DNA of 64,000 bases, from the NCBI RefSeq assembly GCF_964204865.1, contig NC_135260.1, forward strand, positions 8,804,001-8,868,000, written 5' to 3'. Position numbers and translations under genes: made by a program. Numbering within the stretch: position 1 is the first letter of the stretch; each line of letters begins with the position of its first letter. The stretch comes from Styela clava. Taxonomy: Eukaryota. The notes below the pieces were generated by a model, which saw only the letters and a program-made list of their open reading frames with translations, had not been told where the DNA came from and did no database searches. This document shows, piece by piece, positions 37,432 through 61,323 of this stretch.

Positions 37432-40400
37432 CTACTTGTTCCGAAGTACAAAAGACTCGTGGACGACTAAATTAGGAGTCGATTGTAGTTCTTTGATTGA
37501 CGTTACACCTATTTAATAAAAACGATTAGTTGCTAGCTATAACGTGACATTATAATATTTAATAAAGTCTTCCACATCCCAATACTATCGTTTAAATAAG
37601 CCACTTTTGTCCGCCCTCCAGTGCAACTATTGGAAATTATCGGTCACTGTAGTATATTTGCTTCAAAACGTCTGATTTTATATATATATATATATATACC
37701 TATGTGTGTCCGTCTAGTACAGGGGTGGGCAATTACTTTCATGAGTGGGCCGGATGCGGAAAATAGACTTGATTACTGGGCTGGATGATCAAAAGCCGCA
37801 TATTAGCAACTAACTAGACACGATGATTAATGGGACGGTATTACATAGGATGGCAAATTGCGGCAGCTGCACAGAAAAGGTTGATAGAAAAAGAAGCTTA
37901 AGAGCCATGCTAACGTTTATATTGAAGACAACACAACGTAACAATTGAGGTGATTATGAATGAAGTTATTCGACAAATTCAGAGGCTGTACAGCATTCAG
38001 AGAGTAAATGATACACCATTCGCATCGTTTACGAAATAGTTTACTGTAACCTGGGATTTCAAAGTAGCGAGGGGTAGGTTTGTCAAGTCATTGTGCCTCA
38101 CAGAACGCAAGTCTATGAGTCAATCGCCTTCCCGTTTCACTGATCGCGTTTCAGAGATTTGATTTGACCCCTTTTCCACCAAATATGATGTTATAAATAA
38201 AAAAAACAATCAACAGTTCTACTTCGTCAAAAATGAAAGATGACTGACTTGCGCAAACTATATTTTTTATACATTTACGGGGGAAACAGGCGTCGCGATT
38301 ACGCAATTCGTTAACGACCTTTTAAGGCGTAATGATTTTTCTGTTGCGCAAAATATCCATGTCCATGGCCGATACGAGCATTAAAATGATCTCGCCATAT
38401 TATTTTCAACGTGGATCGCCGTTGCGCCGAGTTACAATAAATGAAAGTATTACTATTCTTAAATACAACAATCTGCGTACGCAAAAATCCTCGGTATACT
38501 GCCTGATTATAATAGGAATGGATTTAAATTTGTCTTGGTTTTTAAGATATCACCGTCTGCAAAATCCCAATGTCGGCCAATAATCCTATAAAGAACATGT
38601 GTTGAGGCATTCACGTGTGCACGAAATATCAGGAGCTAGAGTTTTGGAATGACAAAAATAATTCGGATATTCTGATGATTTTGCACATTATATTCAGGTG
38701 CTTATAAAACGTGAGGAATTACGGTGTTTACTTTAGCCGACGATCTTTTATCGACATTTTCAATGGGATTCCAATTCATATCATCGTATTCATCATGTCA
38801 TCATATTTTTAGCAGAAATTTATAGTTATAAAAACTATGGTCATATTTTAACAGGCACAAGTGGGCCGGATGAAACACTGCGGTGGGCCGTAATTTGCCC
38901 ACCCCTGGTCTAGTAGGAAGTTGAGCCTTACATAGCCTGTAACCATTTTAAGTCCAACTTGTGAATTTTCACGGTCTGAAAAATCGTGTCACCCACTTGT
39001 CGCATGTTTGGTGTGTGACACATGGGACAAATTACACATGCGGGGCAGGCAAGTGATGTACAACATTTTCGAGACACATCTTGTTGTCATACCTCAAAAC
39101 TATTAACGCCATATCGCACCCTTTCTACATACCGAGTTGTTGCATAGTTGAAGTAAATTCATCTCTTAAAATTTCCAACACTCGCTGTGCTCCTGTCTTT
39201 CCCTGCATGTAATATATAAAATAAAAGATCTTTACTTGTATTTCGGAGAACTGAGTTTTCAACGTTGGAGATGCTTCCGATGAATTGTTTATTGGTATTT
39301 AAAAACCTTTTATATTGTTGATGAACATTTATTCTGAATTGATAGTGCGCGAATTTGTTTGAATAATTAAATTCGTTTTACGTAGATTATGATTATAGGT
39401 CATAGACATTATGTATAAATATATGAAAGAGTTGGCAGCACTACTAGCGCGTTAAGAGGTCCTAATAAATATGTTTTTTAAGTAAGACGATAAATATCAT
39501 TTGACCTGAAAACAGTCATGGAATAATCAAGTGTGAATTTGAATTTGGGCAATTTTAAGCTATACTACAGTCAAGACTTGATTTGTAAACCAATAAATAG
39601 ATGATATCATACATCACACGCTAGTCCCCAAATTATTGGCCTTCCTACAAAAACAGCTTTAGCACCCAAAGCAATTGCTTTTGCGACGTCTGTTCCTTTA
39701 CGAATTCCACCATCCAAGTAAACATCACATCTACCATTCACTGCTTTCACTACTTCTGGTAGCGAATCAATCTAAAACAGAGTTTAAAACAATATAATCC
39801 ATACACGACTAGGCTGGTGGGAATGCATACTATGACTCAAATATATATATCAACCATACCGGGAACGACACATTCGATGAAAAACTCATTTTTCACAAAC
39901 TGACAAACTTTATCAAGTAATGCATACTTACTGTTGAAAAAGTACTGTCTATCTGCCTTCCTCCGTGATTTGAAACAATTATTCCATGAACGTTGTGTTT
40001 GAGTGCTTCAAGGGCCATTTCCTCTGAAGATCGACGAAGATTCATAATATGTTCATGAAAAAGAACAAAAACCTCCGCCCAACACGTAACCAGTTTTACG
40101 ATAGAAGTATGTATACAATATTTTTAATAAAAAACGTTCATTGGTCGCTGTGAAATATGATGGCTAACCTGTTAATATTCCTTTGACGACCACCGGTAAC
40201 TTTGTAATGCTCTTTAGCCAGTCCAAGGAATCCCATCGCGCACTACCATTTAAACAGCCATCCATTATCAGAGGTTCCTGCCTTCCGATTGCTTTCCATG
40301 ATTCAGTCAAGTTTATAAGTCTGAGAGCAATTAATTTTAGTTTTTTATAAACAAACGCTCAAGTTGTATTATTGCTGTTGTTCCCCCCAAAAGAGAAGAA

Positions 40401-42410
40401 TCTGAGCGTAATCCCGATCCTTCAAGGGCAGTAATGACTACTTTTCAACATTTTTTTGAACATTTCACTTGACATTTGGTATAATTCATTTAATATTCGG
40501 CTTCAATTTTGTTGACATTGCTATGGCTCTACTATTCATTCGATCTTCGTGCCTATATATTTGATCATTGCCTTCTTGTTTTCCGAGATCGGCTCGACTT
40601 GTAACAGCGGAAATTACACTAACCCAATTTTGTGTAGATGTGATGTGTCAGCATGTTTTCCGTCAGGTGTTCTGTTTATCCTCTTTCCAAGTACTGGTTG
40701 ATCAATTGTTACTACGAATCCTGTGAATCCACATTTCTCAGCTCGTTTGACCAAGTGTTCGACCATTTCACGGTGCTTAAACAAAATAATGGCATAGAAA
40801 ATATTACTCATCTTTTTGTCTTTATATTAAATATAGTAGTTATAAAATTAAGAGATCTCAAATTAAGAAAGAAAATAAAGTTTTGAAGAATTTCAATTAT
40901 TATATACAGTATAATATAGCCTATATGTTTTGTTTTATCATGTCTACATATGAATTGTTGTCACCACTCAGCAACCGATGATCTTTTTGGTTCCTTGTCT
41001 ACCTACAATGCAATAATTTTATAGTTATTTTGACATTGATTATTTGCCAACATCTATGATTCAGAGTAACCCAGAGTTTACATAACTCAAAAAGGTAATA
41101 CGAAACTCTGACATCGAAGTATCAGCTAGGTGCTTCTGACTGGTATTCGAGTCAGCTACCTAAACTATTCTTCTCAGACCATTCTTGACACCATTGTTCT
41201 GCTTCAGGTCTTTGTGATTGCATTATACTCAATAGCCTATATTTCCAAAATTGGCCAAAGCGTATGAAATAAAATTACAAACCTTGAGAAATTGAAGATG
41301 GCACCATCGCAAACATCCCGGAACTTTCGTAGAAATCTCTTCATACGTTCTAGTGCTCACTAAGCTCTGTACATATCCAGTGCGAACAGCTTCGGCAGCT
41401 GGAACGGAAAAAGTATTTAAAAACGGAAAAGTAGTAAAATTCATCAGATTATGTTACTTTGAGCGGTTATCGGGAAAGCTTATGTTATTTAGAGGACAAG
41501 TTTTGCTACTTTGTGTTTTTTTCATTAACTACATAACATTACATAATATGTAAATATACTAGTGATATATAAAATTTTTATATATGTCAAAGTTTTTTTT
41601 TCAGAGATAAATCAGGTATGTGGTTTTAAATATCGTTAGGATAGCATAGTTTGACGTTTCTCCTATAAAATACTGCAGCATTCTGCTGGCGCTACCTGGC
41701 CTTCCTGGCGCTACCTTGTGCTGTAGAAATTTCTGCGTCGGCTGTTGCTAAACAATGGAAGGCTGTTGGTGCAATGCAAATAGGGGAAGGAATCTTTGAT
41801 CCTAATACCGTCGTTGAAGTATCCACTTCTGAGACGTCACGCAAAAGACGGGGTCGAAATTTCCACCTGAACACACGTATTTTACTATTGGTTTTCTTAT
41901 CCTCAAAATGTCGTATGACTCTTATTTTAAATAAAAAAATGTTGTGGGAACGCCTGCCGTGTTGATAATGACGTTATTGATTTGCTCGTTGGTATCATTT
42001 TTTTATCAAAGCAAATTATTTCATCAGGACTTGAGTGTTCTAAATTAATTCGACATTCTTGTCGTGAGCCTAAATTATTTAAGTTTTCATGATTTCAGAG
42101 ACCTATTTTTTGTATCAGCGTATTTTCCAATTTAACGATTCAGCATCATATTTTCCGAATATTCATAAATTATTATGTCCATCGTGCTAAAGTGAAATTT
42201 TCTTAGTTACAATATTATTTTTGTGCATATGGCCGCTAAATATACAGGAAAAAAATTGTAAAACTTTACTAACTTTTTATATGCTTCACAATTTTCTTTG
42301 ACTGTTTCATGTCCTACTGCACCTCCATTATAAAATGCCAAATTTTCGGGGGGAATTTTTTGGGAAGCTAACTTTGCAAAGTCTTCTACGCATTTTAATT
42401 GCTCATACAT
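37432..42410 (-). CDS. HAO-like copy 3; exons 42410-42274, 41866-41715, 41398-41283, 40775-40624, 40320-40169, 40023-39932, 39771-39613, 39202-39133, 37508-37432
   Basis: All 9 exons in frame; the exon 4 donor is shifted by 9 nt. Confidence 0.9.
37720..38907. mobile_element. Non-autonomous hAT-Charlie element in HAO copy 3 intron 8
   Basis: TIR CAGGGGTGGGCAA/TTGCCCACCCCTG; perfect TSD GTCTAGTA. Confidence 0.92.
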
Positions 42411-44408
42411 AATGTGATAAATAACAAAATTAACTGCAAATTAATGACATAAAGCACACTGCAAAAAGATTTTCAACTTTATTCTCGTTGCCTATAATAT
42501 ATATTGCCCACATCCACATTGTAAATTATCGCTCTGTAGTTTACAGTCTACAGTCCTAGTATTTGGCTGGATTAGCCTATATTCACTCGCTGTATGTCGC
42601 CATCGGGACATGAGACAAAGGAAATTAGAGTTGACGTTCTTGAAAAAGGCCCTCGTTTAACAAATTGCTGCGTTCTGCAAAATATAACAGATACACAATT
42701 GTTTATATATATAACCTATATTGACCCCCGATTTGTTTAAATTGTACTCATAAATTCTATATTTCGCCTTGACAAAACCAAGTTGCAAGTGCAGTATAGG
42801 CTATATTATACTGGTTAGGGTATATATTTTGATCAGTAAATGAAAGCTCACAATATTTTTACAGCGCTGATCTTTGCTACACCTAAACAAACCATTAACC
42901 GCTCAAGCCATATTGTACTCCAAACTGTCAGCTTGTACACGGGTTATCAATACTGTGACGTTAGCAACTTCACGAACTTGATGACGACTCAATGCGTGAC
43001 GCAGACAAAATGAATTGTTGATATATATACACTAGACTAGAGCAATCATTATGTGCAAAAAAAATTTTCATGTGTGAATATTAAAATAGTTGGAGCCAAA
43101 ATGCATTGAAAAAACACCAAAAGCATTTTGTGGACTATTGTAACAACCACCGATTTAAAGAAAGTTGATATTAGTTTAATACAATAACAATACCGTCCAT
43201 TGTAGGCCTATAATTTCTGACCCTCCGCCAAAGAATTCTTCCGCCAAATACGTTCAATCACGGGTCACGCTCAATACAAAAAATTGTGAAAGAACATAAT
43301 TGGTCGGAAAACAAGTCGAAGTAGGTGCATTTTTGTTTCGAAATTTCAATCAAGGGGCTTTCATTTCCATATTATTCAGAACTACTATATCCTGCATACG
43401 GGCAATACGGTCGCACGTCGATAACCAGTCAAAAAGGTTGCATTGCATCAGTAACAGTGTGAAGTGTATAAAGAAACGTAAAATTCACTGACGTAAAGTA
43501 GAATATTTGACTTGTAAATTATTCGCATTCAATATTACATTGTGCTTAAATCAGAGGTCACATTTATAACTTGGAAACTACAAGCTATAGTGTCATGGCT
43601 AGAACATAGGAAAATGCTTCAGAAAATGTTGTAAACACGATCGGGGTTTCAGGGTTAGGTTTCAAGCTACAAATCAGCAACAAATATTTTTTAACAAAAA
43701 TTTAAAAGTTTGTCCGATGCATGATTAAAAATTTGCAGAATGAATCTTGCATGATGCCAATGACGTTCATCTTCTTTTCAACAGTTTGTTTATTGCAGTT
43801 GTTGGTTTTACTTTTAGAACTTCAGATAGGCAGGCCAGTGGTCTAAACTTTGAGCTTTCTCGGTTTGTTCCGAAAAGTAATAGGGCTTCAATATATTCCC
43901 GTCAAAGTAGTGACTTAGGTATGTCCGATTTAACAGCTTTGTGATTGTGAACAGTTTCAACCATACTATTGAAAACTTATATATATATGGGGCGAGACGG
44001 TTACAATCAATCAATTTTCACATGATTTTGTGAACGAATAATACAACAATGCTTCGTAAATACTAAAAAGGAAATTATCTTTAACCACTCCTTGTATGAG
44101 TGGATGCAAAGACTGTCGAATTGTGGAAAATATAATAATGCTCGTGTTCTAGAATATAACGGTATTGCACATTATCGTTAAGCGACTCTGGAATTATTAT
44201 ATTGAGGGGTTCAAAACATGAATTATTTTTGTTGGTTTGAGAAGCGAGACAAAGATTCAAGTTTGACACCGAATATTTTTGTGATACTGTTCAGCCATCA
44301 GTAATGTCCTATTTTAATAAAATATATATTTATATTTTATAAAAATCTTTTGTTTCATTTTTACAGAACCAGGCTGCTGAACTAACTATATACTGTATAT
44401 TTCAAAAA

Positions 44409-46804
44409 ATGAGATCATTTATAGCTTTGTTACTCATATGCGACATAAACGCTCAGAATATGAATAACTCTGTAGTTTTCAGTACAAAATGTGAAACTTG
44501 TGAGGTATCATGCAATACAGGGGAAGAGCCGGACTTATTCGTAAATAAGAGCGTTGAAATATGTTTGGGTCCAAATGGGAAAAGGGGTCGAGAGGGACCA
44601 ATTGGAGAAGCTGGTGAACCTGGGCCTCCTGGAGAATCGTGTGGCTGCGAGAAATACGATGAATTATGGACGAAAGCTCAATTTCTGAGAAAAATGTTGT
44701 TTGGTACGTTGTGAATATTTTTACTTCGTGTTACATAAAGTGTAAAATGTACATCAATTCTACAGCAACACGTCTAAAATACGTATTACATATATCTAAT
44801 TTATATTTTAGCGACGGATTCAGTATTTGAGTTATAATGAGAATATTATTGATATACATGTAAAGTACAATATCGTCTCGCTAATACCCGAATTGCGTAA
44901 GTCATTTTTGGCGATTTTGAGTTTTTTATAAAATAGGTATTTATGTAATGCTGCGCACCTGTCTGTTAACTCAGATTTTATTTTAGGAATTCCGAAACCC
45001 ATAAAAATGGAGATTTAGTATGACATGCACATTTGTGAAATTGTTTCGTCATAATGAATTATCCTTGTTACCGCAGTACTGTTGTGACGTCACAAAGGCA
45101 AAATACCCTCTGCGAAGTATTTTCGAGTTTTTCCATCTCGGATTCTAGCTTAGCGCGTATTAATTTGAATTTTTACTACAGTATAGGAAGACGTACACTT
45201 GTGATATTCACTGTCCGAGTCAAATTTACCTTGGTTGGCTTTTATATTGGGTGCATTGCTGTTTTATTCTTTATATTTAATCTTAGACCTATTTCGGTGG
45301 GTGTGCAGAACGTGTTATATTGAGGAAATATATATTTTTAAACATAAAAAATGATGTAATTGAAACTGATTAGCTATTTTGGGGATTAGACATTGTAGAT
45401 ACTGAGAATTACATTCGTTTTTGGAATGTTTAGTTTTCAGGACTGGTGCATATAGTGAAGTTGCAAAATTGCGTATGTCACCAAGTCAAAGACACATTTC
45501 TGCCTAAGTCACAGTGCGCCATTATGACGTCACTTAACTGCGTCATACAAATTAACTTAAATCCGGCTACGATCAAAAAATTGAACCATGGCAAATTATT
45601 GACTCTCAATTGCAACACAAAATCATTAGGAAGTTTTTTACGTTTTTCTCAAAACTGCTAAAAATGACTTACGCAATTCGGTTATTAGCGTGACGATATT
45701 GTAAAATATAATACTAAAATACTTGATTGAGAGCTCTTGTGCGGTCACTGTCAGTTTGTTCCTAGAATTTTTCATGCCAAGTTTTTCCAGGTACTTATAA
45801 ATAGTATATGAAATTTCTCACCATATTCCTGATGCTATTGGCACGAACTACTTCTAATTGTGTCACCATATCCACTATTGTGCTTCCTATAGTTGGCATG
45901 TTACCAGCGATAGTTCATGACTTCCTCTGGAGTGAATTTCTATTACACAGAATGACTGTATCGATAATTTTCATATAATTCTTAGTTCCAAACAAAGACA
46001 CTCAAAGTATCTCTGGAATAGAACTAATATAATGCAAGTCAAATGATTGGTGGAATAACTGTGTTGTCAATGTGAGCTAGAATCTTTGAGTGGAAGCCCC
46101 ATAGCCATCTTCGACTAGCAAGCAATAAATTGAGTAGTTTTTTACCGCAATAAATTTAGTAATTAGCGAGTAAGGTTGACGCAGTATAGACATTTTTCAG
46201 CATTTAAAGAAAACGCCAAGTTGGATTTTCTTGTCTGGAAAAAAGCAAGCAACGGTTTGTGGTATCGTTTATTTGAAGACACCGCTACTTGGACACAAGC
46301 AAAAGCAAATTGCGAAGCACAAAATGCAAGATTACCATCATCAGGAATGAGAACAAAATCAATTAGAAAGTAATTTAATACTGATATTGCATTTCTATTG
46401 GGCCTTTTCTAATATATATATATATTCCTTCTGTGTGGAATGCGAAGAATGTTGCCAAATTCTACTCGAAGAGCAGTTAAAATGGGTTTTATATAATATT
46501 ACAACTTTATGATTAGAATATTAACAAGTTGGGTGAGTGTGAATTTAATTTCAAAATATTTTCTAATCTTAGTGAATTTGATTTGATATCTAATTGCAGT
46601 ATGCAAACATACTACCTGCATTGTGCAATCGATTAGGACAGTGCCAGATACATGTCTCGTCATGTTGCCTTTCTAAGCATACCATATATACTAAACATCA
46701 TCCTCATAGTTCTTTGTTAATTCGTGGATTTTTTCTTCCAGAGAAGTTTTTGGTGGCATTCCAAACTCGATTGGTAATCTTTGGCTCGGATATAACGATA
46801 TTGC
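44409..46804 (+). pseudogene. Collectin-like gene copy A, truncated in the CTLD exon (exons 44409-44703, 46201-46369, 46742-46804)
   Basis: Matches copy B up to ...LWLGYNDIA, then joins LTR sequence; the rest of the exon does not resume on the other side of the element. Confidence 0.88.
44873..45696. mobile_element. TA-flanked TIR MITE in collectin A intron 1
   Basis: ~50-bp TIRs TCGTCTCGCTAATACCCGAATTGCGTAAGTCATTTTT / AAAAATGACTTACGCAATTCGGTTATTAGCGTGACGA; absent from copy B (~59983). Confidence 0.85.
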
Positions 46805-47048
46805 TGGAGAAATAGTAAACCTGCACTACTAATATCATTTTACAACAAGAATTACATAGATTTACGGCATTAAAACACTATAATAATAACCTAATATACA
46901 GAGGAATATCTACACTGCCGGCAGTCTGACAAACCAGCTACAAGAGAAAGTTACACAGTTGTTCACTAGTGACTCAAGTGGTAAGAATAAATATGGGCGT
47001 ACAGAATAAAACAGAGAATAAAACAGAGTTATAGACGTGGTCGTCTCA
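46805..47048 (-). repeat. 3' LTR (244 bp present; possibly truncated)
   Basis: Apparently identical to 53329-53572; starts TGAGAC right after the PPT. Confidence 0.9.
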
Positions 47049-47064
47049 TTACTCCCCCCTTTTT
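47049..47064 (-). promoter_or_regulatory. Polypurine tract
   Basis: AAAAAGGGGGGAGTAA immediately 5' of the 3' LTR on the - strand. Confidence 0.85.
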
Positions 47065-47220
47065 CAGATGGGAAATTACAAAGAAATTTTCCATCTTCAA
47101 AATTGACAATCCATAAAAATGTGAAGAAAATGTAAAGAACTGTACACTCAAATGAAATGTATATCTAAAAACAAAACAATGAATTGTTAAAAGCATGATA
47201 GAAGCACTATCACAGTCAAA

Positions 47221-50200
47221 TCAAATGTAATCATCCAAATATCTTGGCCTTCGCCTAGTACGTTGGTTATTATCAGAGTTCGCATCAACTGTAACTTCTT
47301 CTGGTACAGTGTCTGGCCTTTTTTCAAATATATCATGAGCAATCTGCTCATCATTTTCCATAATAGGTTCCACATCAGGTAAAATGTCAAATCCGGTTAA
47401 GTCAATGTCGTTGTCTTCTTCATCTTCATGAAGGTAAGGTCTTAACTTGTCAACGTGTACAATTCGAGAACGTGTTCCCGAATTCTTCTGGATCCTATAC
47501 AAGTGATTAGGTAAACAGTCCACAATTCGATAAGGTCCAATCCAAGGAATACTCAGCTTGCGATGCTTTGGTGGATAATAATACCACACCAATTCATCTC
47601 TCTGGAAAGTAAGTGGTTTAACACCCAGATCAAAATTTCGCTTTTGTCTGGTTGCAGCAGCATTTAGATGTTGCCTAGCATGAAGAAAAGCTTTTTCAGT
47701 TGCACAGGAAAACCATTCGACAAACTCAGTGTAACAAGGATGAATAGATGACTCTGGTTTGCCAAACATAACATCAACAGGCATCTCGATTTCTCGTCCA
47801 AGCATTAACTTGTTCGGTGAATATCCTGTACTATCATGTACAGTGGAGCGATATGCCATGCAAAGATATGGGAGATGGTCGTCCCAATCATTTCGATTCT
47901 CATTTACAAAAGCTTTCAACATCTGCTGTATGGTCCTGTTGAAACGTTCAACTTGTCCATCTGAACGAGGATGATATGGAGTTGTTCGAGTCTTTTGAAT
48001 CCCGTACAATTGACACATTTCTGAAAATAATTTTGATTCAAAGTCTCTTCCTTGATCTGAGTGGAGAATTCTTGGTACCCCAAATCTCGAAAAGAATTGA
48101 GTAACCAATGCATCAGCAGTGGTGTCAGCTCGCTGATTTGGTAAAGCAAAACATTCCACCCATTTAGAGAAATAATCCGACAAAACCAAAATGTGTTCAT
48201 TTCCATTTTCAGTTACAGGCAATGGTCCAAGAAAATCAATGGTAATCCTTTCCATAGGAGCTCCAGATATAAGTTGTTTCAAATCTCCCTGTCTTCTTCC
48301 GTAAAGCATCTTTGTTGAAGCACAAGACTTGCAAAATTTGCACCATTTCAGAATGTCCCTTTTGAAACCAGGCCAATAAAATCTGCGCCTTATACTCTTG
48401 AAAGTTCGATTAGCACCAAGATGACCTGCAGTGCGCAAAGAATGTAGCTTATGGAACAAATCCTGCCTCAAATTTGATGGAACAATCAATTGGATATGCG
48501 ATTCCTCCGATTTACAATCAGGAATCCAACGACGATAGAGAAGTCCATTATCTACAAAAATCAAATCCCATTGTGACATCAAACGTTTGGTCACTGTTGA
48601 TTCAGGCATGTATTCTTGAATGTCAGGTTTCATAGCAGTAAGTTGTTTCCATTTCAAAACAGCAGAAATATCTGGATCTTCACTTTGCCAAGATTTAATT
48701 TGTTCATCTGTGTAGGTATCTAGCCAATTACAATCGGAACAGTCTGACGATGATTGACCGGGCCGTTTTGATATTGCACTTACAATAACATTGCTCACAG
48801 CCACATCACCATTGGTACCACAATCAGAACAATCTTCTCGTTTGCATTTGCGAACTTGGCGTGACAATCCATCAGCATTGCCATGTTTCACGCCCGGTCT
48901 GTGTTCAATCTTAAAGTCATAAGCACCAAGTGTTAATATCCATCTTGCTAACATTCCTTGAGGTTCACGAAAATTGATCAACCATTTCAGAGCAGCATGA
49001 TCTGTGCGAATTCTGAACGGTCTCCCGAGAAGAAAATGACTGAAGTGACGAACAGCCCACACCACAGCTAATAGTTCTCGGTGTGTAGCACAGTATCTAC
49101 GTTGAGACTTGGACATAGTCTTACTGGCATAAGAAAGTACACGTTCATTGTCGTCCTGAACTTGAGATAACACTGCACCAATCCCAAAACCACTGGCATC
49201 AGTATCCAATACAAATTCGCCGATTGTCCTCGGAAAGCTAAGAATTGGGGCAGATGTCAGACAATGCTTCAAAGTTTCAAAAGCCTTTTGACATTCAGTA
49301 CTCCATACAAAAGAAATATTCTTCCTGGTCAATCGAATAAGAGGTCCAGCAATTGTTGAATAATCTTGAACAAATTTCCGGTAGTAGTTCGCTGTGCCTA
49401 GAAAACTACGAATATCGCTGACAGAATTAGGCGTTTTCCATTCTTTGATAGCCGCAACATTTCCAGGGTCGCAACAGACACCTTCAGATGAAATAAGATA
49501 ACCAAGATAAGAGGTGCTTCGACGGAAAAGTTTACATTTCGAGGGCTTCAAGCGTAAACCGGCACGGCGAAGTCTTATAAAAACTTCCCGAAGATTTGAG
49601 AGTGCCATTGAGAAATCACTACCATGAGCCAAAACATCATCAAGAAAATTGAAACACCCGTTCCACAGAAGATCACCAAGGATATTGTCCATCATCCGTT
49701 CGAATGTTGCGGGAGCATTCGCCAAACCGAAAGGCATCACTACAAAGTGAAAATGACCACGGCCTGGGATGCTGAAGGCTGTCTTTTCACGGTCTGCAGG
49801 ATCAACCTCCACTTGCCAATATCCGCTAGCGAGATCAAGAGTTGAGAACCATTGTGCTCCGTTTAAGGACTCAATGATATCCTCAATACGCGGCAAGGGA
49901 TATGCGTCCTTGTATGTGACGTCATTAAGCAATCTAAAATCCACGCAAAATCTGGTAGAACCATCCTTTTTGGGAACTAGGACAATGGGAGAAGAATATG
50001 GGGAATCGCTGGGTTCTTTGACACCCTGAGCCAGCATATTATCAACAGCTTCTTCGGCTATCTTCCTACGCGCCCACCCCATTCGACGAGGAGCCTGCCG
50101 AATCGGCTGTGGTGTGGTTGTGATGATCCTATGCTTTGCTGCTGAAGTACGGCCTAGTTCACCATCTGGCCCTACAAATACATCATGAAATTCACAAATC

Positions 50201-51072
50201 AAATTGACCAACTGTTCACGTTGACTCGGGGTTAGATCCTCAACGGAATTGACCATGTCATGTAGATGTTCTGGTAATTCAGAAGCTATAACCCGATTAT
50301 CGAATTCGTCAACTTGAATTTGTGCTACAAGTTGAGGATGTGCAATACCAAGCAAAGATCCAGCCCTGATCTTAAGTTGTCTGCCTTTTTGGTTCACCGC
50401 TAGAACAGGAACAGTGGACTTTCCTGGATCCACAACAGAAGAGATCAGCTGAATGCCATCAGCGAGGAAAGAAGAATTCAGCGGTTCAACAAGAGCAGCA
50501 ACGTCAGACAAACTGCTTTTCGGCCAAGGACGACTAAGTTGTGCAGGGATAACAACCTTAGAATATGGCGGTATCGTAATATCTTCTCGAACAGTTACAC
50601 GACAACACGGTACAGACTTTTCAGTAAACAGTTTGATTTCATGACCCTCTATCATCATGTGTCCAGATGATAAGTAAAGAACGCAATCATGTTCTCGGAG
50701 ATAGTCCATGCCCAAAATACCATTAGACATACCTAGGTTGGCAACAACAACAGTGCGTCGCGATGCAAAAGAATCAATAGACAAATCAACTTCCAAAGTA
50801 CCCAGTGGTAATAAATCATGTCCTCCCACTGCAACAAGAGATTCTTCGAGCGGTGCTAAATGTGCTTCTTTCCCACCTATAGCCTCAAAGATGGAAATGT
50901 CGATCAGAGTAGTCATAGCACCACTATCTACAAGAAAATTGAACGGTTGATTGTTTACAAGTACCTTCGCATGCCAACTATTGTCATATTGCAAAGAACA
51001 AATATTCAGGTCTATATTCTGGTTCGTTGGTCCGTCATCAAGTAATAATTCAGCGGACACTGAGGACCTCAA
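47221..51072 (-). CDS. pol: Gypsy Pol (protease, RT, RNase H, integrase), probably expressed by -1 frameshift from gag
   Basis: LVDSGA; RFCVDFRLLN, MPFGLANAPATF, FLDD; LDTDAS; HHCC zinc finger; SDQG, GQVERFNRT. Confidence 0.96.
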   Translation of the reverse strand: MRSSVSAELLLDDGPTNQNIDLNICSLQYDNSWHAKVLVNNQPFNFLVDSGAMTTLIDISIFEAIGGKEAHLAPLEESLVAVGGHDLLPLGTLEVDLSIDSFASRRTVVVANLGMSNGILGMDYLREHDCVLYLSSGHMMIEGHEIKLFTEKSVPCCRVTVREDITIPPYSKVVIPAQLSRPWPKSSLSDVAALVEPLNSSFLADGIQLISSVVDPGKSTVPVLAVNQKGRQLKIRAGSLLGIAHPQLVAQIQVDEFDNRVIASELPEHLHDMVNSVEDLTPSQREQLVNLICEFHDVFVGPDGELGRTSAAKHRIITTTPQPIRQAPRRMGWARRKIAEEAVDNMLAQGVKEPSDSPYSSPIVLVPKKDGSTRFCVDFRLLNDVTYKDAYPLPRIEDIIESLNGAQWFSTLDLASGYWQVEVDPADREKTAFSIPGRGHFHFVVMPFGLANAPATFERMMDNILGDLLWNGCFNFLDDVLAHGSDFSMALSNLREVFIRLRRAGLRLKPSKCKLFRRSTSYLGYLISSEGVCCDPGNVAAIKEWKTPNSVSDIRSFLGTANYYRKFVQDYSTIAGPLIRLTRKNISFVWSTECQKAFETLKHCLTSAPILSFPRTIGEFVLDTDASGFGIGAVLSQVQDDNERVLSYASKTMSKSQRRYCATHRELLAVVWAVRHFSHFLLGRPFRIRTDHAALKWLINFREPQGMLARWILTLGAYDFKIEHRPGVKHGNADGLSRQVRKCKREDCSDCGTNGDVAVSNVIVSAISKRPGQSSSDCSDCNWLDTYTDEQIKSWQSEDPDISAVLKWKQLTAMKPDIQEYMPESTVTKRLMSQWDLIFVDNGLLYRRWIPDCKSEESHIQLIVPSNLRQDLFHKLHSLRTAGHLGANRTFKSIRRRFYWPGFKRDILKWCKFCKSCASTKMLYGRRQGDLKQLISGAPMERITIDFLGPLPVTENGNEHILVLSDYFSKWVECFALPNQRADTTADALVTQFFSRFGVPRILHSDQGRDFESKLFSEMCQLYGIQKTRTTPYHPRSDGQVERFNRTIQQMLKAFVNENRNDWDDHLPYLCMAYRSTVHDSTGYSPNKLMLGREIEMPVDVMFGKPESSIHPCYTEFVEWFSCATEKAFLHARQHLNAAATRQKRNFDLGVKPLTFQRDELVWYYYPPKHRKLSIPWIGPYRIVDCLPNHLYRIQKNSGTRSRIVHVDKLRPYLHEDEEDNDIDLTGFDILPDVEPIMENDEQIAHDIFEKRPDTVPEEVTVDANSDNNQRTRRRPRYLDDYI

Positions 51073-51096
51073 GCCCGCTGAGTGTCGTTTAAATTT
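51048..51096 (-). promoter_or_regulatory. -1 programmed ribosomal frameshift signal
   Basis: A AAU UUA AAC in the gag frame, a 5-nt spacer, then stem UCAGCGGGC...GUCCGCUGA; pol is in the -1 frame. Confidence 0.8.
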
Positions 51097-52646
51097 GCGG
51101 TCGAAGAGGAAGCAGCTGTTGCAGGATCAGCGAGATTCTGAAGATGTGGACAATCCCGTTTAAGATGACCAGTCTGCTTGCAATTAAAACATGCCTTGCA
51201 ATCCCTGCCCCAATGACCATGTTTACCACATCGAGGACACGGGTTGCGTGGTACACCATCAAAATTGCGATTGTTGGCACGCGGCTTAACATATCCTATA
51301 ATCTCATCCAGTTTCTGTACAAGTAACTTGATACTGTCTTCAAGAGAAAAGTCGCTTTGCTGATTAACTACATTACCAGTATTGCTCTGTTTCACTGCTG
51401 CAATGCGCGGTTTAGACATGTTCTTTCCCTCGGAGTGGTTATTATCAACAGAGTAATACAGTGTCGCAAGAGACAAAGCCTTTTCGAAAGTATCAGGCTG
51501 TTGCATGGTAACATGCTTGATCATGCTTTCATCGGTTAGACCGGCAAGAAATTGCGATTTCAAAATATCATCTTGACCAGTAATATCCAGATTTGGGTAG
51601 GCAAGAATAACAAGCTCTTTCAACTTATTACCGTAATCCCGTGGCGCTTCATTTGGCTTAATCCTACGACAGTGAAATGTAGTACGGTAGGAGCTCTCAT
51701 TTCCGGCAGGTTTGAAGAAATGATTGAAATGAGCCACAATATCACGATAGCTAGTACGTTTCATATCTGGTAAATCTTTCAACACATTTAGAGCTTGACC
51801 TGTCATGCAAGTAGCCAATTCTAATCCCGCAGTGTCGTCATCCCACTGATTATAACTGGTAACCAATTCAAAATGGCATAAATAACTGGGCCACGTCATG
51901 ACAGTGGATCCATCGAAATACATTGGCTTTTTGGCATTTCTTGCCATCATCGTAGCATTAGCTGTGCTATTGAGAACACTATGACTAACATTGGCATTTG
52001 AGACACTACTAGCGCTCACTGGAGGAGCTGATTGTGTAGCCACTGTAACCATTTTCGGCCTAGTACTAAGTTGCCTTCTGACATTTGTGCCCTCATTACC
52101 ATTATCATTCAAAAAAGGAATTGTAGGTGCAAGGTTACTCACATGACCATTCTCCAAAAATTTCACTTCTAATGTCTGTGAGAACGCGTTCCGCTTCCCT
52201 TCTGGCTGTCCATCTTCTGATCCAAAATCAGAAATTTCATCATGCTTGAGAACAGGTGCTGCTTTTGGAACAACTGTTGCTGGTGTTGAAGTGATCAGGC
52301 TGACATTTGGGTCATGTGACATGGGCTGGGTTTCCTCAGGATCAGCAATTTTTCCTTTATTAACCACGCCAGAAATATCTTGCAGAATGCTGTACATCTG
52401 CTCAAATGACGAGCCCATTTTTGTATTTTGGAATTCAACTGATTCTAGTTGACTTCCAATCTGTTGTACACAACCGTCCATCTGTTGCATGCGACTGTCT
52501 ATCAGTTGCAAACGGCTGTCAGTCTCCTCTTGCTTTTCCTCTGACTCCCTCAATTTTGCCTTCAATACCTGTATTTGCAGATGCAAAAGTTCATTCTCCT
52601 CTTTGGCTTGCTTTGGTGCCGGTACAATCTTTCTTCTCTTAACCAT
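51069..52646 (-). CDS. gag: Gypsy Gag with coiled-coil N-terminus and two CCHC zinc knuckles
   Basis: CPRCGKHGHWGRDC and CFNCKQTGHLKRDC; 525-aa ORF directly upstream of pol. Confidence 0.93.
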   Translation of the reverse strand: MVKRRKIVPAPKQAKEENELLHLQIQVLKAKLRESEEKQEETDSRLQLIDSRMQQMDGCVQQIGSQLESVEFQNTKMGSSFEQMYSILQDISGVVNKGKIADPEETQPMSHDPNVSLITSTPATVVPKAAPVLKHDEISDFGSEDGQPEGKRNAFSQTLEVKFLENGHVSNLAPTIPFLNDNGNEGTNVRRQLSTRPKMVTVATQSAPPVSASSVSNANVSHSVLNSTANATMMARNAKKPMYFDGSTVMTWPSYLCHFELVTSYNQWDDDTAGLELATCMTGQALNVLKDLPDMKRTSYRDIVAHFNHFFKPAGNESSYRTTFHCRRIKPNEAPRDYGNKLKELVILAYPNLDITGQDDILKSQFLAGLTDESMIKHVTMQQPDTFEKALSLATLYYSVDNNHSEGKNMSKPRIAAVKQSNTGNVVNQQSDFSLEDSIKLLVQKLDEIIGYVKPRANNRNFDGVPRNPCPRCGKHGHWGRDCKACFNCKQTGHLKRDCPHLQNLADPATAASSSTANLNDTQRA

Positions 52647-52783
52647 TTTTCCAAAATATCAGGCAACCGCAATTAAAAAAAAATTCGGCAACCTCAAATG
52701 TCCAATATTGTCCAAATATTATCCGTCACAGACTAGCCTACTTAATCGGCTTAGTCTTAATAGTCCCTGTGTCAAATAATATA

Positions 52784-52802
52784 TCCTGGCGTGTGCTCGC
52801 CA
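52784..52802 (-). promoter_or_regulatory. Candidate primer-binding site (tRNA-Arg-like)
   Basis: TGGCGAGCACACGCCAGGA resembles the complement of a tRNA-Arg(ACG) 3' end (recalled, not aligned). Confidence 0.5.
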
Positions 52803-53328
52803 AAAATTCGTATATGTGGCGTACCAAAATTGATATCACCACTCAGGTTCTTTCTGCCAGCTTATCGGACACTGAAGTTGCAATAGATGTCGTTCACAAA
52901 ACAATCTTCTTGCGGTTCCAATCACAGCAGAGTAACTAAGTTAACTAACTAGATTAATTATACACCTGTAAGAACTTAATACAACCAAATACTCCAATAA
53001 GAAATACAATAAACAAATAAAAACATGAAAAACACAGTACAAATACCGTAGGATACATACGTAACAAAAGATACGGAATTGGTCTATGACGTCACAGTCA
53101 TGAACTATTTACTTATAATGGGATACTAAAAACCGGGTAAAACATGCCTAGATATACATAAGAATAACTAGAATGACACTAAAGATACAACACAAATCCT
53201 ATCTTATCGACAAACACGTAATATACATGGAAATACGCATAGAAATCACACAGGAAATAAACTGCGAAAATAGACTAGTTACGGAAGTGTTAAATACAAG
53301 CTAACTAGTGAACAGAGCTATGCCAAAC

Positions 53329-53572
53329 TGGAGAAATAGTAAACCTGCACTACTAATATCATTTTACAACAAGAATTACATAGATTTACGGCATTAAAAC
53401 ACTATAATAATAACCTAATATACAGAGGAATATCTACACTGCCGGCAGTCTGACAAACCAGCTACAAGAGAAAGTTACACAGTTGTTCACTAGTGACTCA
53501 AGTGGTAAGAATAAATATGGGCGTACAGAATAAAACAGAGAATAAAACAGAGTTATAGACGTGGTCGTCTCA
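53329..53572 (-). repeat. 5' LTR (shared part; true LTR may extend to ~52815)
   Basis: Direct repeat of 46805-47048. Confidence 0.9.
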
Positions 53573-54018
53573 CATAACATTTGCTTGGGCAGCTTTTCCT
53601 CCTGGTGTAATCTAAAAATAACTTCGGTTTATTGTATCACGTATTCTACGAAATGGAAAGTGATAATTTTTGTTTTAACATTTGGTTTTAACAGTTAATT
53701 TTAAGCTAAGGCAATCGTATGAGATTAATAACTAATACCCTATTCATTTTGAACTTCATGGAAATTCTTTTGAGGAAGTTTGTTTAAAACAGTTGACCTT
53801 GTATAGAATAGAATTATCTCTTATCTATCACCATTCATTTATCGTTTGTTCACAAGATGTTGCGGTGAACGTTAATGATCCTTTACTGTATAAATATTAG
53901 ATCTGTCAATAATTGCAATACTTACTCTTGAAATAGTACAAGGTGCTCCTGCAAAAGTTCCACTTGATAGACGGAATCCCCAAGGCTGTCCGCCGGACAT
54001 TGATACCTCATAAGGCAT
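53573..54018 (-). pseudogene. PDZ-LIM family (ZASP/LDB3/PDLIM-like) fragment: first coding exon 54018-53926 and start of the next exon 53611-53573, cut by the LTR
   Basis: MPYEVSMSGGQPWGFRLSSGTFAGAPCTISR|ITPGGKAAQANVM with GTAAGT donor and TTTTAG acceptor; fits the PWGFRL...ISRITPG.KAAQ N-terminal PDZ pattern. Too short for the ORF track. Confidence 0.82.
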
Positions 54019-54724
54019 TTTGAAATTTTTTTTTTAATAAATTATATTTTAAAATCTGCAAAATACATTGCATAGTATGGTGTGTTCATACCTTGCTAAA
54101 CATAACAAGTTTGCCACGTTGCTGCTTCAATACACCTTCTACCATGTTATTTTCATAAACTAACAACCTAAATATTTTGTCTAATTAACATGCAAACTTG
54201 AGACCAACATATATGGAAAATTTATATTTGATATGTTTGAGCTATATTGACAAAAACATAAAATATCTGAAAAGCGTTGAGAGTCAAAATCCATTCTAAC
54301 ATCTTGTAATAAATCCCCCTTTGGTGCCGTTCAGTAATATGTGTGATTCTGCATAACCGTTTTGATTACTCAACATGCTGTGCTATATGCTCAAACCTAG
54401 CCATATATCTTTAAAAACCTTTTATATTGTTGATGAACATTTATTCTGAACTGATAGTGCGCGAATTTGTTTGAATAATTAAATTCGTTTTACGTAGATT
54501 ATGATTATAGGTCATAGACATTATGTATAAATATATGAAAGAGTTGGCAGCACTACTAGCGCGTTAAGAGGTCCTAATAAATATGTTTTTTAAGTAAGAC
54601 GATAAATATCACTTGACCTGAAAACAGTCATGGAATAATCAAGTGTGAATTTGAATTTGGGCAATTTTAAGCTATACTACAGTCAAGACTTGATTTGTAA
54701 ACCAATAAATAGATGATATCATAC

Positions 54725-57529
54725 ATCACACGCTAGTCCCCAAATTATTGGCCTTCCTACAAAAACAGCTTTAGCACCCAAAGCAATTGCTTTTGCGACG
54801 TCTGTTCCTTTACGAATTCCACCATCCAAGTAAACATCACATCTACCATTCACTGCTTTCACTACTTCTGGTAGCGAATCAATCTAAAACAGAGTTTAAA
54901 ACGATATAATCCATACACGACTAGGCTGGTGGGAATGCATACTATGACTCAAATATATATATCAACCATAACGGGAACGACACATTCGAGGAAAAACTGA
55001 TTTTTCACAAACTGAGAAAATTTATCAAGTAATGCATACTTACTGTTGAAAAAGTACTGTCTATCTGCCTTCCTCCGTGATTTGAAACAATTATTCCATG
55101 AACGTTGTGTTTGAGTGCTTCAAGGGCCATTTCCTCTGAAGATCGACGAAGATTCATAATATGTTCATGAAAAAGAACAAGAACCTCCGCCCAACACGTA
55201 ACCAGTTTTACGATAGAAGTATGTATACAATATTTTTAATAAAAAACGTTCATTGGTCGCTGTGAAATATGGTGGCTAACCTGTTAATATTCCTTTGACG
55301 ACCACCGGTAACTTTGTAATGCTCTTTAGCCAGTCCAAGGAATCCCATCGCGCACTACCATTTAAACACTCATCCATTATCAGAGGTTCCTGCCTTCCGA
55401 TTGCTTTCCATGATTCAGTCAAGTTTATAAGTCTGAGAGCAATTAATTTTAGTTTTTTATAAACAAACGCTCAGGTTGTATTATTGCTGTTGTTCCCCCC
55501 AAAAGAGAAGAATCTGAGCGTAATCCCGATCCTTCAAGGGCAGTAATGACTACTTTTCAACATTTTTTTGAACATTTCACTTGACATTTGGTATAATTCA
55601 TTTAATATTCGGCTTCAATTTTGTTGACATTGCTATGGCTCTACTATTCATTTGATCTTCGTGCCTATATATTTGATCATTGCCTTCTTGTTTTCCGAGT
55701 CCGAGATCGGCTCGACTTGTAACAGCGGAAATTACACTAACCCAATTTCGTGTACATGTGACGTGTCAGCATGTTTTCCGTCAGGTGTTCTGTTTATCCT
55801 CTTTCCAAGTACTGGTTGATCAATTGTTACTACGAATCCTGTGAATCCACATTTCTCAGCTCGTTTGACCAAGTGTTCGACCATTTCACGGTGCTTAAAC
55901 AAAATAATGGCATAAAAAATATTACTCATCTTTTTGTCTTTATATTAAATATAGTAGTTATAAAATTAAGAAATCTCAAATTAAGAAAGAAAATAAAGTT
56001 TTGAAGAATTTTAATTATTATATACAGTATAATATAGCCTATATGTTTTGTTTTATCATGTCTACATATGAATTGTTGTCACCACTCAGCAACCGATGCT
56101 CTTTTTGGTTCCTTGTCTACCTACAATGCAATAATTTTATAGTTATTTTGACATTGATTATTTGCCAACATCTATGATTCAGAGTAACCCAGAGTTTACA
56201 TAACTCAAAAAGGTAATACGAAACTCTGACATCGAAGTATCAGCTGGGTGCTTCTGACTGGTACTCGAGTCAGCTACCGAAACTATTCTTCTCATACCAT
56301 TCTTGACACCATTGTTCTGCTTCCAGTCTTTGTGATTGCATTATACTCAATAGCCTATATTTCCAAAATTGGCCAAAGCGTATGAAATAAAATTACAAAC
56401 CTTGAGAAATTGAAGATGGCACCATCGCAAACATCCCGGAACTTTCGTAGAAATCTCTTCATACGTCCTAGTGCTCACTAAGCTCTGTACATATCCAGTG
56501 CGAACAGCTTCGGCAGCTGGAACGGAAAAAGTATTTAAAAACGGAAAAGTAGTAAAATTCATCAGATTATGTTACTTTGAGCGGTTATCGGGAAAGCTTA
56601 TGTTATTTAGAGGACAAGTTTTGCTACTTTGTGTTTTTTTCATTAACTACATAACATTACATAATATGTAAATATACTAGTGATATATAAAATTTTTATA
56701 TATATCAAAGTTTTTTTTTTCAGAGATAAATCAGGTATGTGGTTTTAAATATCGTTAGGATAGCATAGTTTGACGTTTCTCCTATAAAATACTGCAGCAT
56801 TCTGCTGGCGCTACCTGGCCTTCCTGGCGCTACCTTGTGCTGTAGAAATTTCTGCGTCGGCTGTTGCTAAACAATGGAAGGCTGTTGGTGCAATGCAAAT
56901 AGGGAAAGGAATCTTTGATCCTAATACCGTCGTTGAAGTATCAACTTCTGAGACGTCACGCAAAAGACGGGGTCGAAATTTCCACCTGAACACACGTATT
57001 TTACTATTGGTTTTCTTATCCTCAAAATGTCGTATGACTCTTATTTTAAATAAAAAAATGTTGTGGGAACGCCTGCCGTGTTGATAATGACGTTATTGAT
57101 TTGCTCGTTGGTATCATTTTTTTATCAAAGCAAATTATTTCATCAGGACTTGAGTGTTCTAAATTAATTCGAGATTCTTGTCGTGAGCCTAAATTATTTA
57201 GGTTTTCATGATTTCAGAGACCTATTTTTTGTATCAGCGTATTTTCCAATTTAACGATTCAGCATCATATTTTCCGAATATTCATAAATTATTATGTCCA
57301 TCGTGCTAAAGTGAAATTTTCTTAGTTACAATATTATTTTTGTGCATAGGGCCGCTAAATATACAGGAAAAAAATTGTAAAACTTTACTAACTTTTTATA
57401 TGCTTTACAATTTTCTTTGACTGTTTCATGTCCTACTGCACCTCCATTATAAAATGCCAAATTTTCGGGGGGAATTTTTTGGGAAGCTAACTTTGCAAAG
57501 TCTTCTACGCATTTTAATTGCTCATACAT
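54725..57529 (-). pseudogene. HAO-like copy 4, exons 1-7 only (3'-truncated by the duplication breakpoint at ~54410)
   Basis: Near-identical to copy 3; identity stops inside intron 7; no exon 8 or 9 sequence follows. Confidence 0.85.
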
Positions 57530-59525: not shown

Positions 59526-60709
59526 ATGAGATCATTTATAGCTTTGTTACTCATATGCAACATAAACGCTCAGAGTATGAATACCTCTGTAGTTTCCAGT
59601 ACAAAATGTGAAACTTGTGAGGTATCATGCAATACAGGGGAAGAGCCGGACTTATTCGTAAATAAGAGCGTTGAAATATGTTTGGGTCCAAATGGGAAAA
59701 GGGGTCGAGAGGGACCAATTGGAGAAGCTGGTGAACCTGGGCCTCCCGGAGAATCGTGTGGCTGCGAGAAATACGATGAATTATGGACGAAAGCACAATT
59801 TCTGAGGAAAATGTTGTTTGGTACGTTGTGAATATTTTTACTTCGTGTTACATAAAGTGTAAAATGTAGATCAAATTCTACAGCAACACGTTTTAAACAC
59901 GTATATATCCAATTTATTTTTTAGCGACGGATTCAGTATTTGAGTTATGATGACATTATTATTGATATACATGTAAAGTACAATGTTGTAAAATATAATA
60001 CCAAAATACTTGATTGAGAGCTCTTGTGCGGTCACTGTCAGTCTGTTCCTAGAAATTTTTATGCCAAGTTTTTCCAGGTACTTATAAATAGTATATGAAA
60101 TTTCTCACCATAATCTTGATGCTATTGGCACGAACTACTTCTAATTGTGTCCCCATATCCACTTTTATGTAATCTATAGTTGGCATCTTCCCAGCGATAG
60201 TTCGTGAATTCCTCTGGAGTGAATTTCTTTTACACATAAATGACTGTATCGATAATTTTCATATAATTCTTAGTTCCAAACAAAGACAATCAAAGTATCT
60301 ACCTCGTTGTACTTTCACAATGCATTGTTCTACATGTCCAGAGCCCCTGGAATAGAACTAATATAATGCAAGTCAAATGGTTGGTGTACTGTGTTGTCAA
60401 CGTAGGCTAGAATCTTGGAGTGGAAGCCCCATGTCCTTCTTCGACTAGCAAGCAATAAATTGAGTAATTAGCGAGTAATGTTGACGCTGTATGGACGTTT
60501 TTCAGCATTCAAAGAAAACGCCAAGTTGGATTTTCTTGTCTGGAAAAAAGCAAGCAACGGTTTGTGGTATCGTTTATTTGAAGACACCGCTACTTGGACA
60601 CAAGCAAAAGCAAATTGCGAAGCACAAAATGCGAGATTACCATCATCAGGAATGAGAACAAAATCAATAAGAAAGTAATTTGATACTGATATTGCATTTC
60701 TATTGGGCC

Positions 60710-60740
<31 letters not shown>

Positions 60741-61323
60741 CTTCTGTGTGGAATGCGAAGAATGTTGCCAAATTATACTCGAAGAGCAGTTAAAATGGGT
60801 TTTATATAATATTACAACCGTATGATTAGAATATTAACAAGTTGGGTCAGTGTGAATTTAATTTCAAAATATTTTCTAATCTTAGTGAATTTGATTTGAT
60901 ATCTAATTGCAGTATGCAAACATACTACCTGCATTGTGCAATCGATTAGGACAATGCCAGATACATGTCTCGTCATGTTGCCCTTCTAAGCATACCATAT
61001 TTACTAAATATCATCCTCAAAGTTATTTGTTAATTCGTGGATTTTTTTCTTCCAGAGAAGTTTTTGGTGGCATTCCAAACTCGATTGGTAATCTTTGGCT
61101 CGGATATAACGATATTGCTCGAGAAGGTAGATGGATTTGGTCAGACAACATTGTATTCCATAATTTCCATTGGCGTCGTGGAGAACCAAATAACGTTTGG
61201 GGGATGGAAGATTGCGCTCTTATGACTATAGAATCTCATGTTCGAGGAGAAATATCCTTAAATGATGTTCTCTGTACTAGTGAAGATTTGGTTTCTCGGT
61301 ACATCTGTGAGTATGTGCCATGA
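59526..61323 (+). CDS. Collectin-like secreted lectin copy B (signal peptide, Cys-rich region, 8 Gly-X-Y triplets, CTLD); exons 59526-59820, 60506-60674, 61056-61323; 243 aa
   Basis: GPNGKRGREGPIGEAGEPGPPGES; TWTQAKANC, LWLGYND...EG.W.WSD, WRRGEPNN, EDC, LNDV.C, YICE; exon lengths sum to 732 nt. Confidence 0.92.

What the first reader, a model, noticed from the sequence alone, without database searches (positions are those of the whole stretch)
46790..54420. Gypsy element with no TSD bridges exons of two different genes at a duplication junction
Seen: the left flank is the collectin CTLD exon (...GATATTGC) and the right flank is a PDZ-LIM exon (CATAACAT...); there is no shared 4-6 bp TSD and the collectin exon does not resume. 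The left junction has microhomology (intact collectin CTCGAGAA vs element CTGGAGAA). At ~54410 the PDZ fragment joins HAO intron 7. Inference: a large tandem duplication (HAO intron 7 through collectin, SMPDL3B and on to the PDZ-LIM 5' region), then Gypsy insertion into the duplicated PDZ exon, then a microhomology-mediated deletion from collectin to the 3' LTR. This predicts an intact minus-strand PDZ-LIM gene to the right of this window.
Basis: partly seen in the sequence, partly recalled or inferred. Interest (0 to 1): 0.7.

Follow-up and report, generated by a model that had tools for sequence, protein, structure and literature searches.

The report
Retrotransposon-anchored deletion inside a tandem duplication
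In a sea-squirt genome assembly a young retrotransposon joins broken exons of two genes that otherwise lie 55 kb apart, likely because a 62.5-kb stretch was duplicated and one copy then lost its middle up to the retrotransposon's end, which is a known kind of rearrangement.

Summary
In Styela clava, a young Gypsy element (46804-53572) joins a cut collectin exon to a cut PDZ exon without a TSD; 24 of 24 sibling insertions checked have one. The reason is plain: the 3' LTR keeps only 245 of 758 bp and meets collectin at a 7-of-8 microhomology. Both LTRs share a marker found nowhere else, so this is one insertion, not inter-element recombination. The predicted parent lies 62.5 kb to the right, co-oriented. 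The geometry is a 62.5-kb tandem duplication (TTTAA junction at 54410) with a nested 55-kb deletion anchored on the element.

Corrections: the parent has PDZ and DUF4749 but no LIM domain. The copies differ unevenly (HAO 1%, collectin and PDZ about 5%, mostly silent changes), so they likely come from two haplotypes. The order of events is inferred; one integration-triggered event is a live rival. Both copy types are in sequencing runs, but no listed contig bridged a junction. Known kind; modest interest.

The parts
39298..44869 (.). Left copy of the duplicated block: HAO paralogue 3 (intron 7 up to exon 1, minus strand), spacer, collectin exon 1 (plus strand)
   Evidence: 98.9% identical to 54410-59982
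44866..45699 (.). Non-autonomous DNA transposon with inverted ends in collectin intron 1 of the left copy only
   Evidence: Inverted repeat I3; other copies in the region; absent from the right copy
44409..46805 (+). Truncated collectin: exons 44409-44703, 46201-46369, 46742-46805; read-through into the LTR stops after 8 codons
   Evidence: Collagen and Lectin_C matches
46804..46811 (.). Left (deletion) junction: 2 bp exact, 7-of-8 imperfect microhomology between collectin and the LTR interior
46804..47048 (-). 3' LTR cut to 245 of 758 bp; identical to 53328-53572
47049..47065 (-). Polypurine tract
47221..51126 (-). pol ORF, 1301 aa without a stop: protease, RT, RNase H, integrase (Gypsy order)
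51069..52658 (-). gag ORF, 529 aa, CCHC zinc knuckle, overlapping pol in another frame
52815..53572 (-). Complete 5' LTR, 758 bp, TG...CA, with a clean outer end
53573..53576 (+). CATA: the one surviving copy of the expected 4-bp TSD (inferred from the family rule)
53573..54414 (-). PDZ/DUF4749 gene fragment: coding exon 1 at 53926-54018, part of exon 2 at 53573-53611; the frame meets TGA at the LTR's first bases (44 aa)
   Evidence: parent at G000:C14:8920107-8920937
54410..54414 (.). Duplication junction, TTTAA microhomology (PDZ 5' region to HAO intron 7)
54410..57529 (-). HAO paralogue 4: exons 1-7 (320 codons, open), lacking the last two exons
59526..61323 (+). Intact collectin of the right copy
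62166..62741 (-). Acid-sphingomyelinase-like (SMPDL3-type) exon; first gene of the 55 kb that is present only in the right copy
   Evidence: ASMase_C match; single copy

Best explanation
This is a 62.5-kb tandem duplication with a nested 55-kb deletion whose right edge is a Gypsy insertion, and it likely formed in steps. (1) Inferred: a microhomology-mediated (TTTAA) template switch or unequal exchange joined the PDZ 5' region to HAO intron 7, most likely between two divergent homologues, or within one haplotype followed by an ordinary crossover near collectin exon 1. (2) Shown by anatomy: one Gypsy copy integrated with a clean 5'-LTR end in exon 2 of the left PDZ copy; that the copy was already redundant is inferred. 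(3) Inferred: microhomology-mediated repair joined the interior of its 3' LTR to collectin exon 3, after or during integration, removing 513 bp of LTR, the left TSD copy and 55 kb of redundant genes. Net result (shown): one intact set of genes plus three gene fragments and the element.
For: Linked, co-oriented parent; duplication unit 62,528 bp and missing host DNA 54,987 bp. Microhomology at both host junctions beyond chance. Both LTRs share a 35-nt marker that occurs twice in 377 Mb, both times here, and differ at 0 of 245 bases. Siblings have TSDs, 24 of 24. A sibling at G000:C8:21897183-21903862 shows the same one-sided LTR loss with a small host deletion, so that step happens by itself in this family. 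The copy differences are mostly silent (5 N, 10 S, dN/dS 0.14, P = 2e-4), as expected of alleles that were functional until recently; published heterozygosity is about 1.72% (PMC7540406). Left-copy sequence with 0 differences is present in runs X1-X3. Depth beyond the collectin break matches the right copy alone (8.8 against 20.1; 16 against 27). The window has no N.
Against: The order is barely timed: the chance of 0/245 LTR differences if the element were as old as the HAO divergence is 0.09, and that divergence may be allelic. The insertion lies 837 bp from the duplication junction, in the last 1.3% of the unit, which is a coincidence under independent steps. None of the fragments shows decay. 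No listed contig bridges any junction; most pieces were not shown (1850, 161). Read depth does not separate 2 from 3 HAO copies (likelihood ratio about 1.8 in X2; X1 leans to 2). No third allele type was seen, and the left-copy haplotype was not seen as an intact allele in X5 or X16.
Confidence: 0.55

Rival explanations
1. One event: a one-ended Gypsy integration, or a fork stalled at the fresh insertion, set off two template switches in one cell cycle (collectin to LTR interior, then PDZ to HAO intron 7 on the homologue).
For: One clean end plus one truncated, microhomology-joined end on nearby DNA of the same chromosome matches aberrant retroviral integration (PMC5041404). The insertion is only 837 bp from the second junction. 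Both junctions have similar microhomology. No fragment has decayed. Duplications with nested deletions were proposed to arise in one cell cycle (PMC6258378).
Against: In the retroviral model as read, the extra sequences are appended at the aberrant end; a second junction beyond the integrase-made end is not part of it. The C8 sibling shows that LTR-end loss occurs as a small local deletion. Selection or ascertainment may favour deletions that start near the end of a duplication (inference).
Confidence: 0.28
2. Assembly artefact: the animal is heterozygous for a Gypsy-anchored 55-kb deletion, and the two haplotypes were falsely joined at 54410, or one of the junctions comes from a chimeric read.
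For: The copies differ like alleles. The two types are near 1:1 in X1 and X2, and no third type was listed. HAO depth in X1 is about 1.8 times single-type depth. No bridging contig was listed.
Against: No gap in the window. The 5-bp microhomology has a chance rate of 0.7%, and overlap assemblers do not join on 5 bp (own knowledge). X3 shows the right-copy type at up to about 2:1 (1.6 and 2.4 at two sites), and X2 HAO depth (20-24) exceeds the 2-copy expectation (16-17).
Confidence: 0.09
3. Deletion first: a Gypsy knockout of the single-copy PDZ gene and the 55-kb deletion arose on one haplotype, and an unequal exchange with an intact homologue later restored the genes.
For: It gives the same final structure and explains the two haplotypes.
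Against: It needs an allele lacking about ten genes to persist, and then a rare exchange that covers the deletion (inference).
Confidence: 0.06
4. Recombination between two separate Gypsy insertions, one in collectin and one in PDZ, deleted the DNA between them.
For: This is the standard account of TSD-less elements (PMC4668562). The family has 165 exact LTR-end matches in the genome.
Against: It would leave two full LTRs, but the left one lacks 513 bp. Both LTRs carry a marker unique to this site. The 12 sibling LTRs compared differ from this one by 8-31 substitutions.
Confidence: 0.02

Closest known systems
Tandem duplication with a nested deletion (human clustered CNVs; PMC6258378, passages read)
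   Same: Duplication junction with short microhomology, a deletion inside one copy, and fragments left at both ends.
   Different: One deletion edge here is a young LTR retrotransposon, the copies come from haplotypes about 5% apart, and it is in an ascidian genome.
Aberrant one-ended retroviral integration (ASLV, HIV; PMC5041404, passages and Discussion read)
   Same: One clean integrase-type end; the other end truncated and joined by short homology to nearby DNA on the same chromosome; large host deletion; no TSD.
   Different: A natural Gypsy element without drug or mutant integrase; simultaneity cannot be shown; there is an extra junction 837 bp beyond the clean end.
TSD-less and truncated LTR elements in plants (PMC4668562, passages read: 8.0% of elements were intact without TSD)
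   Same: Loss of the TSD together with flanking host DNA.
   Different: Those are ascribed to recombination between two elements and keep full LTRs; here there is one element with a cut LTR.
PDLIM3/ALP-like protein (P0241, named 'PDZ and LIM domain protein 3-like')
   Same: N-terminal PDZ and DUF4749 region.
   Different: No LIM domain in this protein or in three ascidian relatives.

Membership tests
Ty3/Gypsy LTR retrotransposon | pol order protease-RT-RNase H-integrase | tested here: met
Ty3/Gypsy LTR retrotransposon | gag upstream of pol | tested here: met
   529-aa ORF with zf-CCHC
Ty3/Gypsy LTR retrotransposon | Two direct LTRs, TG...CA | tested here: met
   5' LTR complete (758 bp), 3' LTR cut to 245 bp
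Ty3/Gypsy LTR retrotransposon | Polypurine tract and primer-binding site | tested here: inconclusive
   PPT present; a TGG-starting motif lies 12 nt inside the 5' LTR boundary, not matched to a tRNA
Ty3/Gypsy LTR retrotransposon | 4-6 bp TSD | tested here: not met
   Absent here because the left end is missing; present in 24 of 24 siblings, so family membership stands and this copy is a rearranged one
Ty3/Gypsy LTR retrotransposon | Placement in a named Gypsy clade | not tested
   One search gave only unclassified Gypsy-type pol proteins; no tree was built
Tandem duplication with nested deletion | Parent linked, co-oriented and downstream of a head-to-tail junction | tested here: met
Tandem duplication with nested deletion | Interval missing from one copy and single-copy in the genome | tested here: met
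   Two probes at the two ends of the interval each gave one full match
Tandem duplication with nested deletion | Junctions present in single molecules | tested here: inconclusive
   Only contigs and sparse Hi-C reads; no bridging piece listed
Aberrant one-ended integration | One clean end and one truncated end with short homology to nearby host DNA | tested here: met
Aberrant one-ended integration | Deletion made at the time of integration | not testable with these tools
   Needs intermediate alleles from a population
Inter-element recombination product | Two full LTRs from different insertions | tested here: not met
PDZ-LIM (PDLIM) proteins | PDZ domain and DUF4749 region | tested here: met
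PDZ-LIM (PDLIM) proteins | C-terminal LIM domain | tested here: not met
   None in P0241-P0244 at E up to 0.1; none of 41 genomic LIM matches lies near the gene

The most novel reading that the evidence does not exclude
A single one-ended integration of a natural Gypsy retrotransposon set off an inter-homologue, multi-switch rearrangement in the germ line of a wild animal, duplicating 7.5 kb and carrying a distant PDZ fragment in with the element. This would be a natural counterpart of drug-induced aberrant retroviral integration. The C8 sibling hints that such one-sided ends recur in this active family.
Probability: 0.25. Interest if true: 0.55.

Novelty: new member of a known kind. Interest (0 to 1): 0.27.

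Why it matters
As it stands it is a well-resolved example of how an active LTR family and microhomology repair reshape a fast-changing HAO/collectin gene cluster: a large duplication is cut back almost to its ends, leaving three gene fragments and an unchanged dose of about ten genes. It is also a caution for annotation: the extra HAO, collectin and PDZ pieces are not new genes, and a missing TSD need not mean recombination between elements. If population data show no intermediate alleles, it would become evidence that a retrotransposon integration error alone can build a complex germ-line rearrangement.

Tried and rejected
Inter-element recombination: rejected. Templated insertion from an unlinked site: rejected. 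One old duplication decaying neutrally: rejected by the divergence step (52/5376 against 61/1268, Fisher P = 7e-17 at the best-fitting change point) and by dN/dS 0.14.

Dating by dead-copy decay led nowhere: both HAO copies carry amino-acid changes when polarised by eye against paralogues 1 and 2 (about 3 N in copy 4, 2 N in copy 3, 1 unclear).

A functional HAO-PDZ fusion protein is unlikely: the inferred PDZ acceptor at 54055 lies 37 nt before the ATG, out of frame, and stops after 15 residues; PDZ exon 2 stops at the LTR. No RNA holder was listed. In X5 (kind only guessed as RNA) no such joint was listed, which says nothing on expression.

Zygosity and copy number from contig depth stayed undecided. 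X16 covered single-copy DNA too thinly. Contig breaks at 53583 and 54452 fit real junctions but are weak evidence. No tRNA gene in the window. Two look-ups of earlier findings returned nothing. Paper searches listed no paper on this locus, but none was aimed at it by gene name. No supplements were read.
Full report
Setting. A riboflavin-transporter ORF in the window is 99% identical to a Styela clava protein, and the next hit is 56%. The window is G000:C14:8804001-8868000 and has no N. Positions above 64000 below are window-equivalent, from ten adjacent stretches. The window holds four minus-strand hydroxyacid-oxidase (HAO) copies; a fifth, inverted, lies near 75.5 kb.

The element. ORFs of 529 aa (zf-CCHC) and 1301 aa (protease, RT, RNase H, integrase) lie on the minus strand without stops. 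Comparison with sibling copies puts the full LTR at 52815-53572, 758 bp, TG...CA. The left LTR is only 46804-47048 and is identical to the last 245 bp of the right one. A 35-nt stretch that includes a 12-bp duplication occurs exactly twice in 377 Mb, once in each LTR, so both come from one insertion. The top 40 LTR hits (of 215 candidates) belong to this element and 24 others; all 24 have a 4-bp TSD (12, 8, 2, 2). These are the most similar copies, not a random sample. The missing TSD here follows from the missing 513 bp; CATA at 53573 is the expected surviving copy (inferred).

Junctions. Left: collectin exon 3 meets the LTR interior with 2 bp exact and 7-of-8 imperfect microhomology; 100,000 random host-LTR joins give 7 of 8 in 0.35% and 2 bp or more in 18%. 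Middle: a clean LTR end in PDZ exon 2. Right: the PDZ 5' region meets HAO intron 7 at TTTAA (chance 0.7%).

53573-54409 has 2 matches in the genome: itself, and 116107-116937 on the same strand at 93%. That gene is intact on the minus strand. It encodes a 370-aa protein named 'PDZ and LIM domain protein 3-like' with PDZ and DUF4749 but no LIM, like three ascidian relatives; none of 41 LIM matches is nearby. The duplicated unit is 62,528 bp and the left copy lacks 54,987 bp. Pfam scans of 188 of 218 ORFs of 62 aa or more from L003-L009 (21 in L009 and 9 short ones left out) put in that interval an ASMase-like gene, four further collagen plus C-type-lectin genes, one more lectin exon, the inverted HAO, an RGS-domain gene, a weak FAM92 match, hAT remnants and the PDZ 3' part. 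Probes at both ends of the interval are single-copy.

The copies differ unevenly: HAO block 1.13%, collectin 3' part 4.6%, PDZ 5.5%, with a step near 44.7 kb (52/5376 against 61/1268). Coding differences are 1 N and 4 S in PDZ and 4 N and 6 S in collectin (dN/dS 0.14, P = 2e-4), so these sequences diverged while functional. HAO differs by 6 N and 3 S at 0.9%, on both lineages. The simplest reading (inferred) is two haplotypes: an exchange between homologues, or a duplication followed by a crossover near collectin exon 1. Genome-wide heterozygosity of about 1.72% is published for the species (PMC7540406, passages), so 5% is in the tail. An old duplication with later conversion of HAO is not excluded. 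Where covered, X5 and X16 carry right-copy alleles and X5 has an intact PDZ exon 2; a second public version of the protein also has the parent's residue 19. The left-copy haplotype was therefore not seen as an intact allele.

Reads. Four runs of one study hold 74-85% of the words of 53450-54800 and may be the assembly's own source, so they are not independent. In X1-X3, contigs with 0 differences to the left copy lie beside right-copy contigs. Depth just beyond the last diagnostic collectin site is 8.8 (X2) and 16 (X3), against sums of 20.1 and 27, as expected if the left copy does not run on (derived from bin means). No listed piece bridges a junction, and most pieces were not shown. Depth does not settle copy number: X2's HAO depth and X3's collectin ratio lean to three copies, while X1 and X2's 1:1 ratios lean to two or to homozygosity. 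The 54410 junction is the least supported by reads.

How often. Of 99 LTR-end matches listed on contigs C1-C10 (first 100 of 165, one C13 row dropped), 19 lacked the other end by exact pattern. On inspection 7 were full length; 7 were interrupted, internally deleted or rearranged; 4 are short remnants that I did not follow; and 1 (C8:21897183-21903862) is a near-complete element with a clean 5' end and a 3' LTR cut to about 135 bp. It sits in one copy of a local duplication, has lost about 13 bp of host DNA, and has a short inverted copy of the flank at the join, which I read as polymerase-theta-type repair (label recalled). One-sided LTR loss thus recurs in the family; the 55-kb reach is what is unusual here.

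Mechanism. Best (0.55): duplication, then insertion into the redundant PDZ exon, then a microhomology join to collectin after or during integration. Redundancy explains why an exon knockout and the loss of about ten genes are tolerated (inference). Rival (0.28): one cell-cycle event seeded by a one-ended integration. It is favoured by the 837-bp distance to the second junction (1.3% of the unit), the lack of decay, and the match to aberrant retroviral ends (PMC5041404, passages and Discussion). Duplications with nested deletions are described in humans and were proposed to form in one cell cycle (PMC6258378, passages). Artefact 0.09, deletion first 0.06, inter-element recombination 0.02 (the usual account of TSD-less elements; PMC4668562, passages).

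Products (predicted, untested). Collectin copy 1 ends 8 codons into the LTR. HAO copy 4 spliced to the inferred PDZ acceptor would be out of frame. The PDZ fragment stops at codon 44. No new functional gene is expected.

Verdict. The feature is present in the assembly and probably in the animal. It is a new instance of known kinds of rearrangement. Interest 0.27.

Noticed in passing
G000:C8:21897183-21903862 (L079-L081): Second young family member with a clean 5' end, a 3' LTR cut to about 135 bp, about 13 bp of host DNA lost and a short inverted copy of the flank at the join; it sits in one copy of a local duplication whose other copy shows the empty site.
   Followed up: partly
window 44866-45699 versus 59978-59990: The right collectin copy has TA + 8 nt resembling both transposon ends + TA where the left copy has the whole transposon. 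This looks like an excision footprint, so the element may be ancestral to both copies, not a later insertion.
   Followed up: no
window 15500-44000 and L003-L005: Five HAO paralogues (one inverted) and at least five intact-looking collectin-like genes within about 80 kb: a cluster in turnover. HAO copies 3 and 4 differ at near-neutral N/S.
   Followed up: partly
L007:8745 to L008:2544 (minus strand): Ascidian PDLIM3-like protein without a LIM domain, conserved in Clavelina and Ciona savignyi. It has a splice acceptor just before the ATG; a 5' UTR intron or trans-splicing was not tested.
   Followed up: partly
L075-L077 (G000:C10:23.05-23.16 Mb): Three near-identical rearranged LTR-derived pieces within about 110 kb, with the same flanks; possibly a local segmental amplification.
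   Followed up: no
LTR family, genome-wide: Very active family: 165 exact LTR-end matches; 9 of 12 LTR pairs have no substitution; two insertions on different contigs (L020, L023) have identical LTRs.
   Followed up: partly
window 2882-9956: A long riboflavin-transporter (SLC52A3-like) ORF, followed by exons that read like a galactocerebrosidase (label recalled from the translation, not tested).
   Followed up: no
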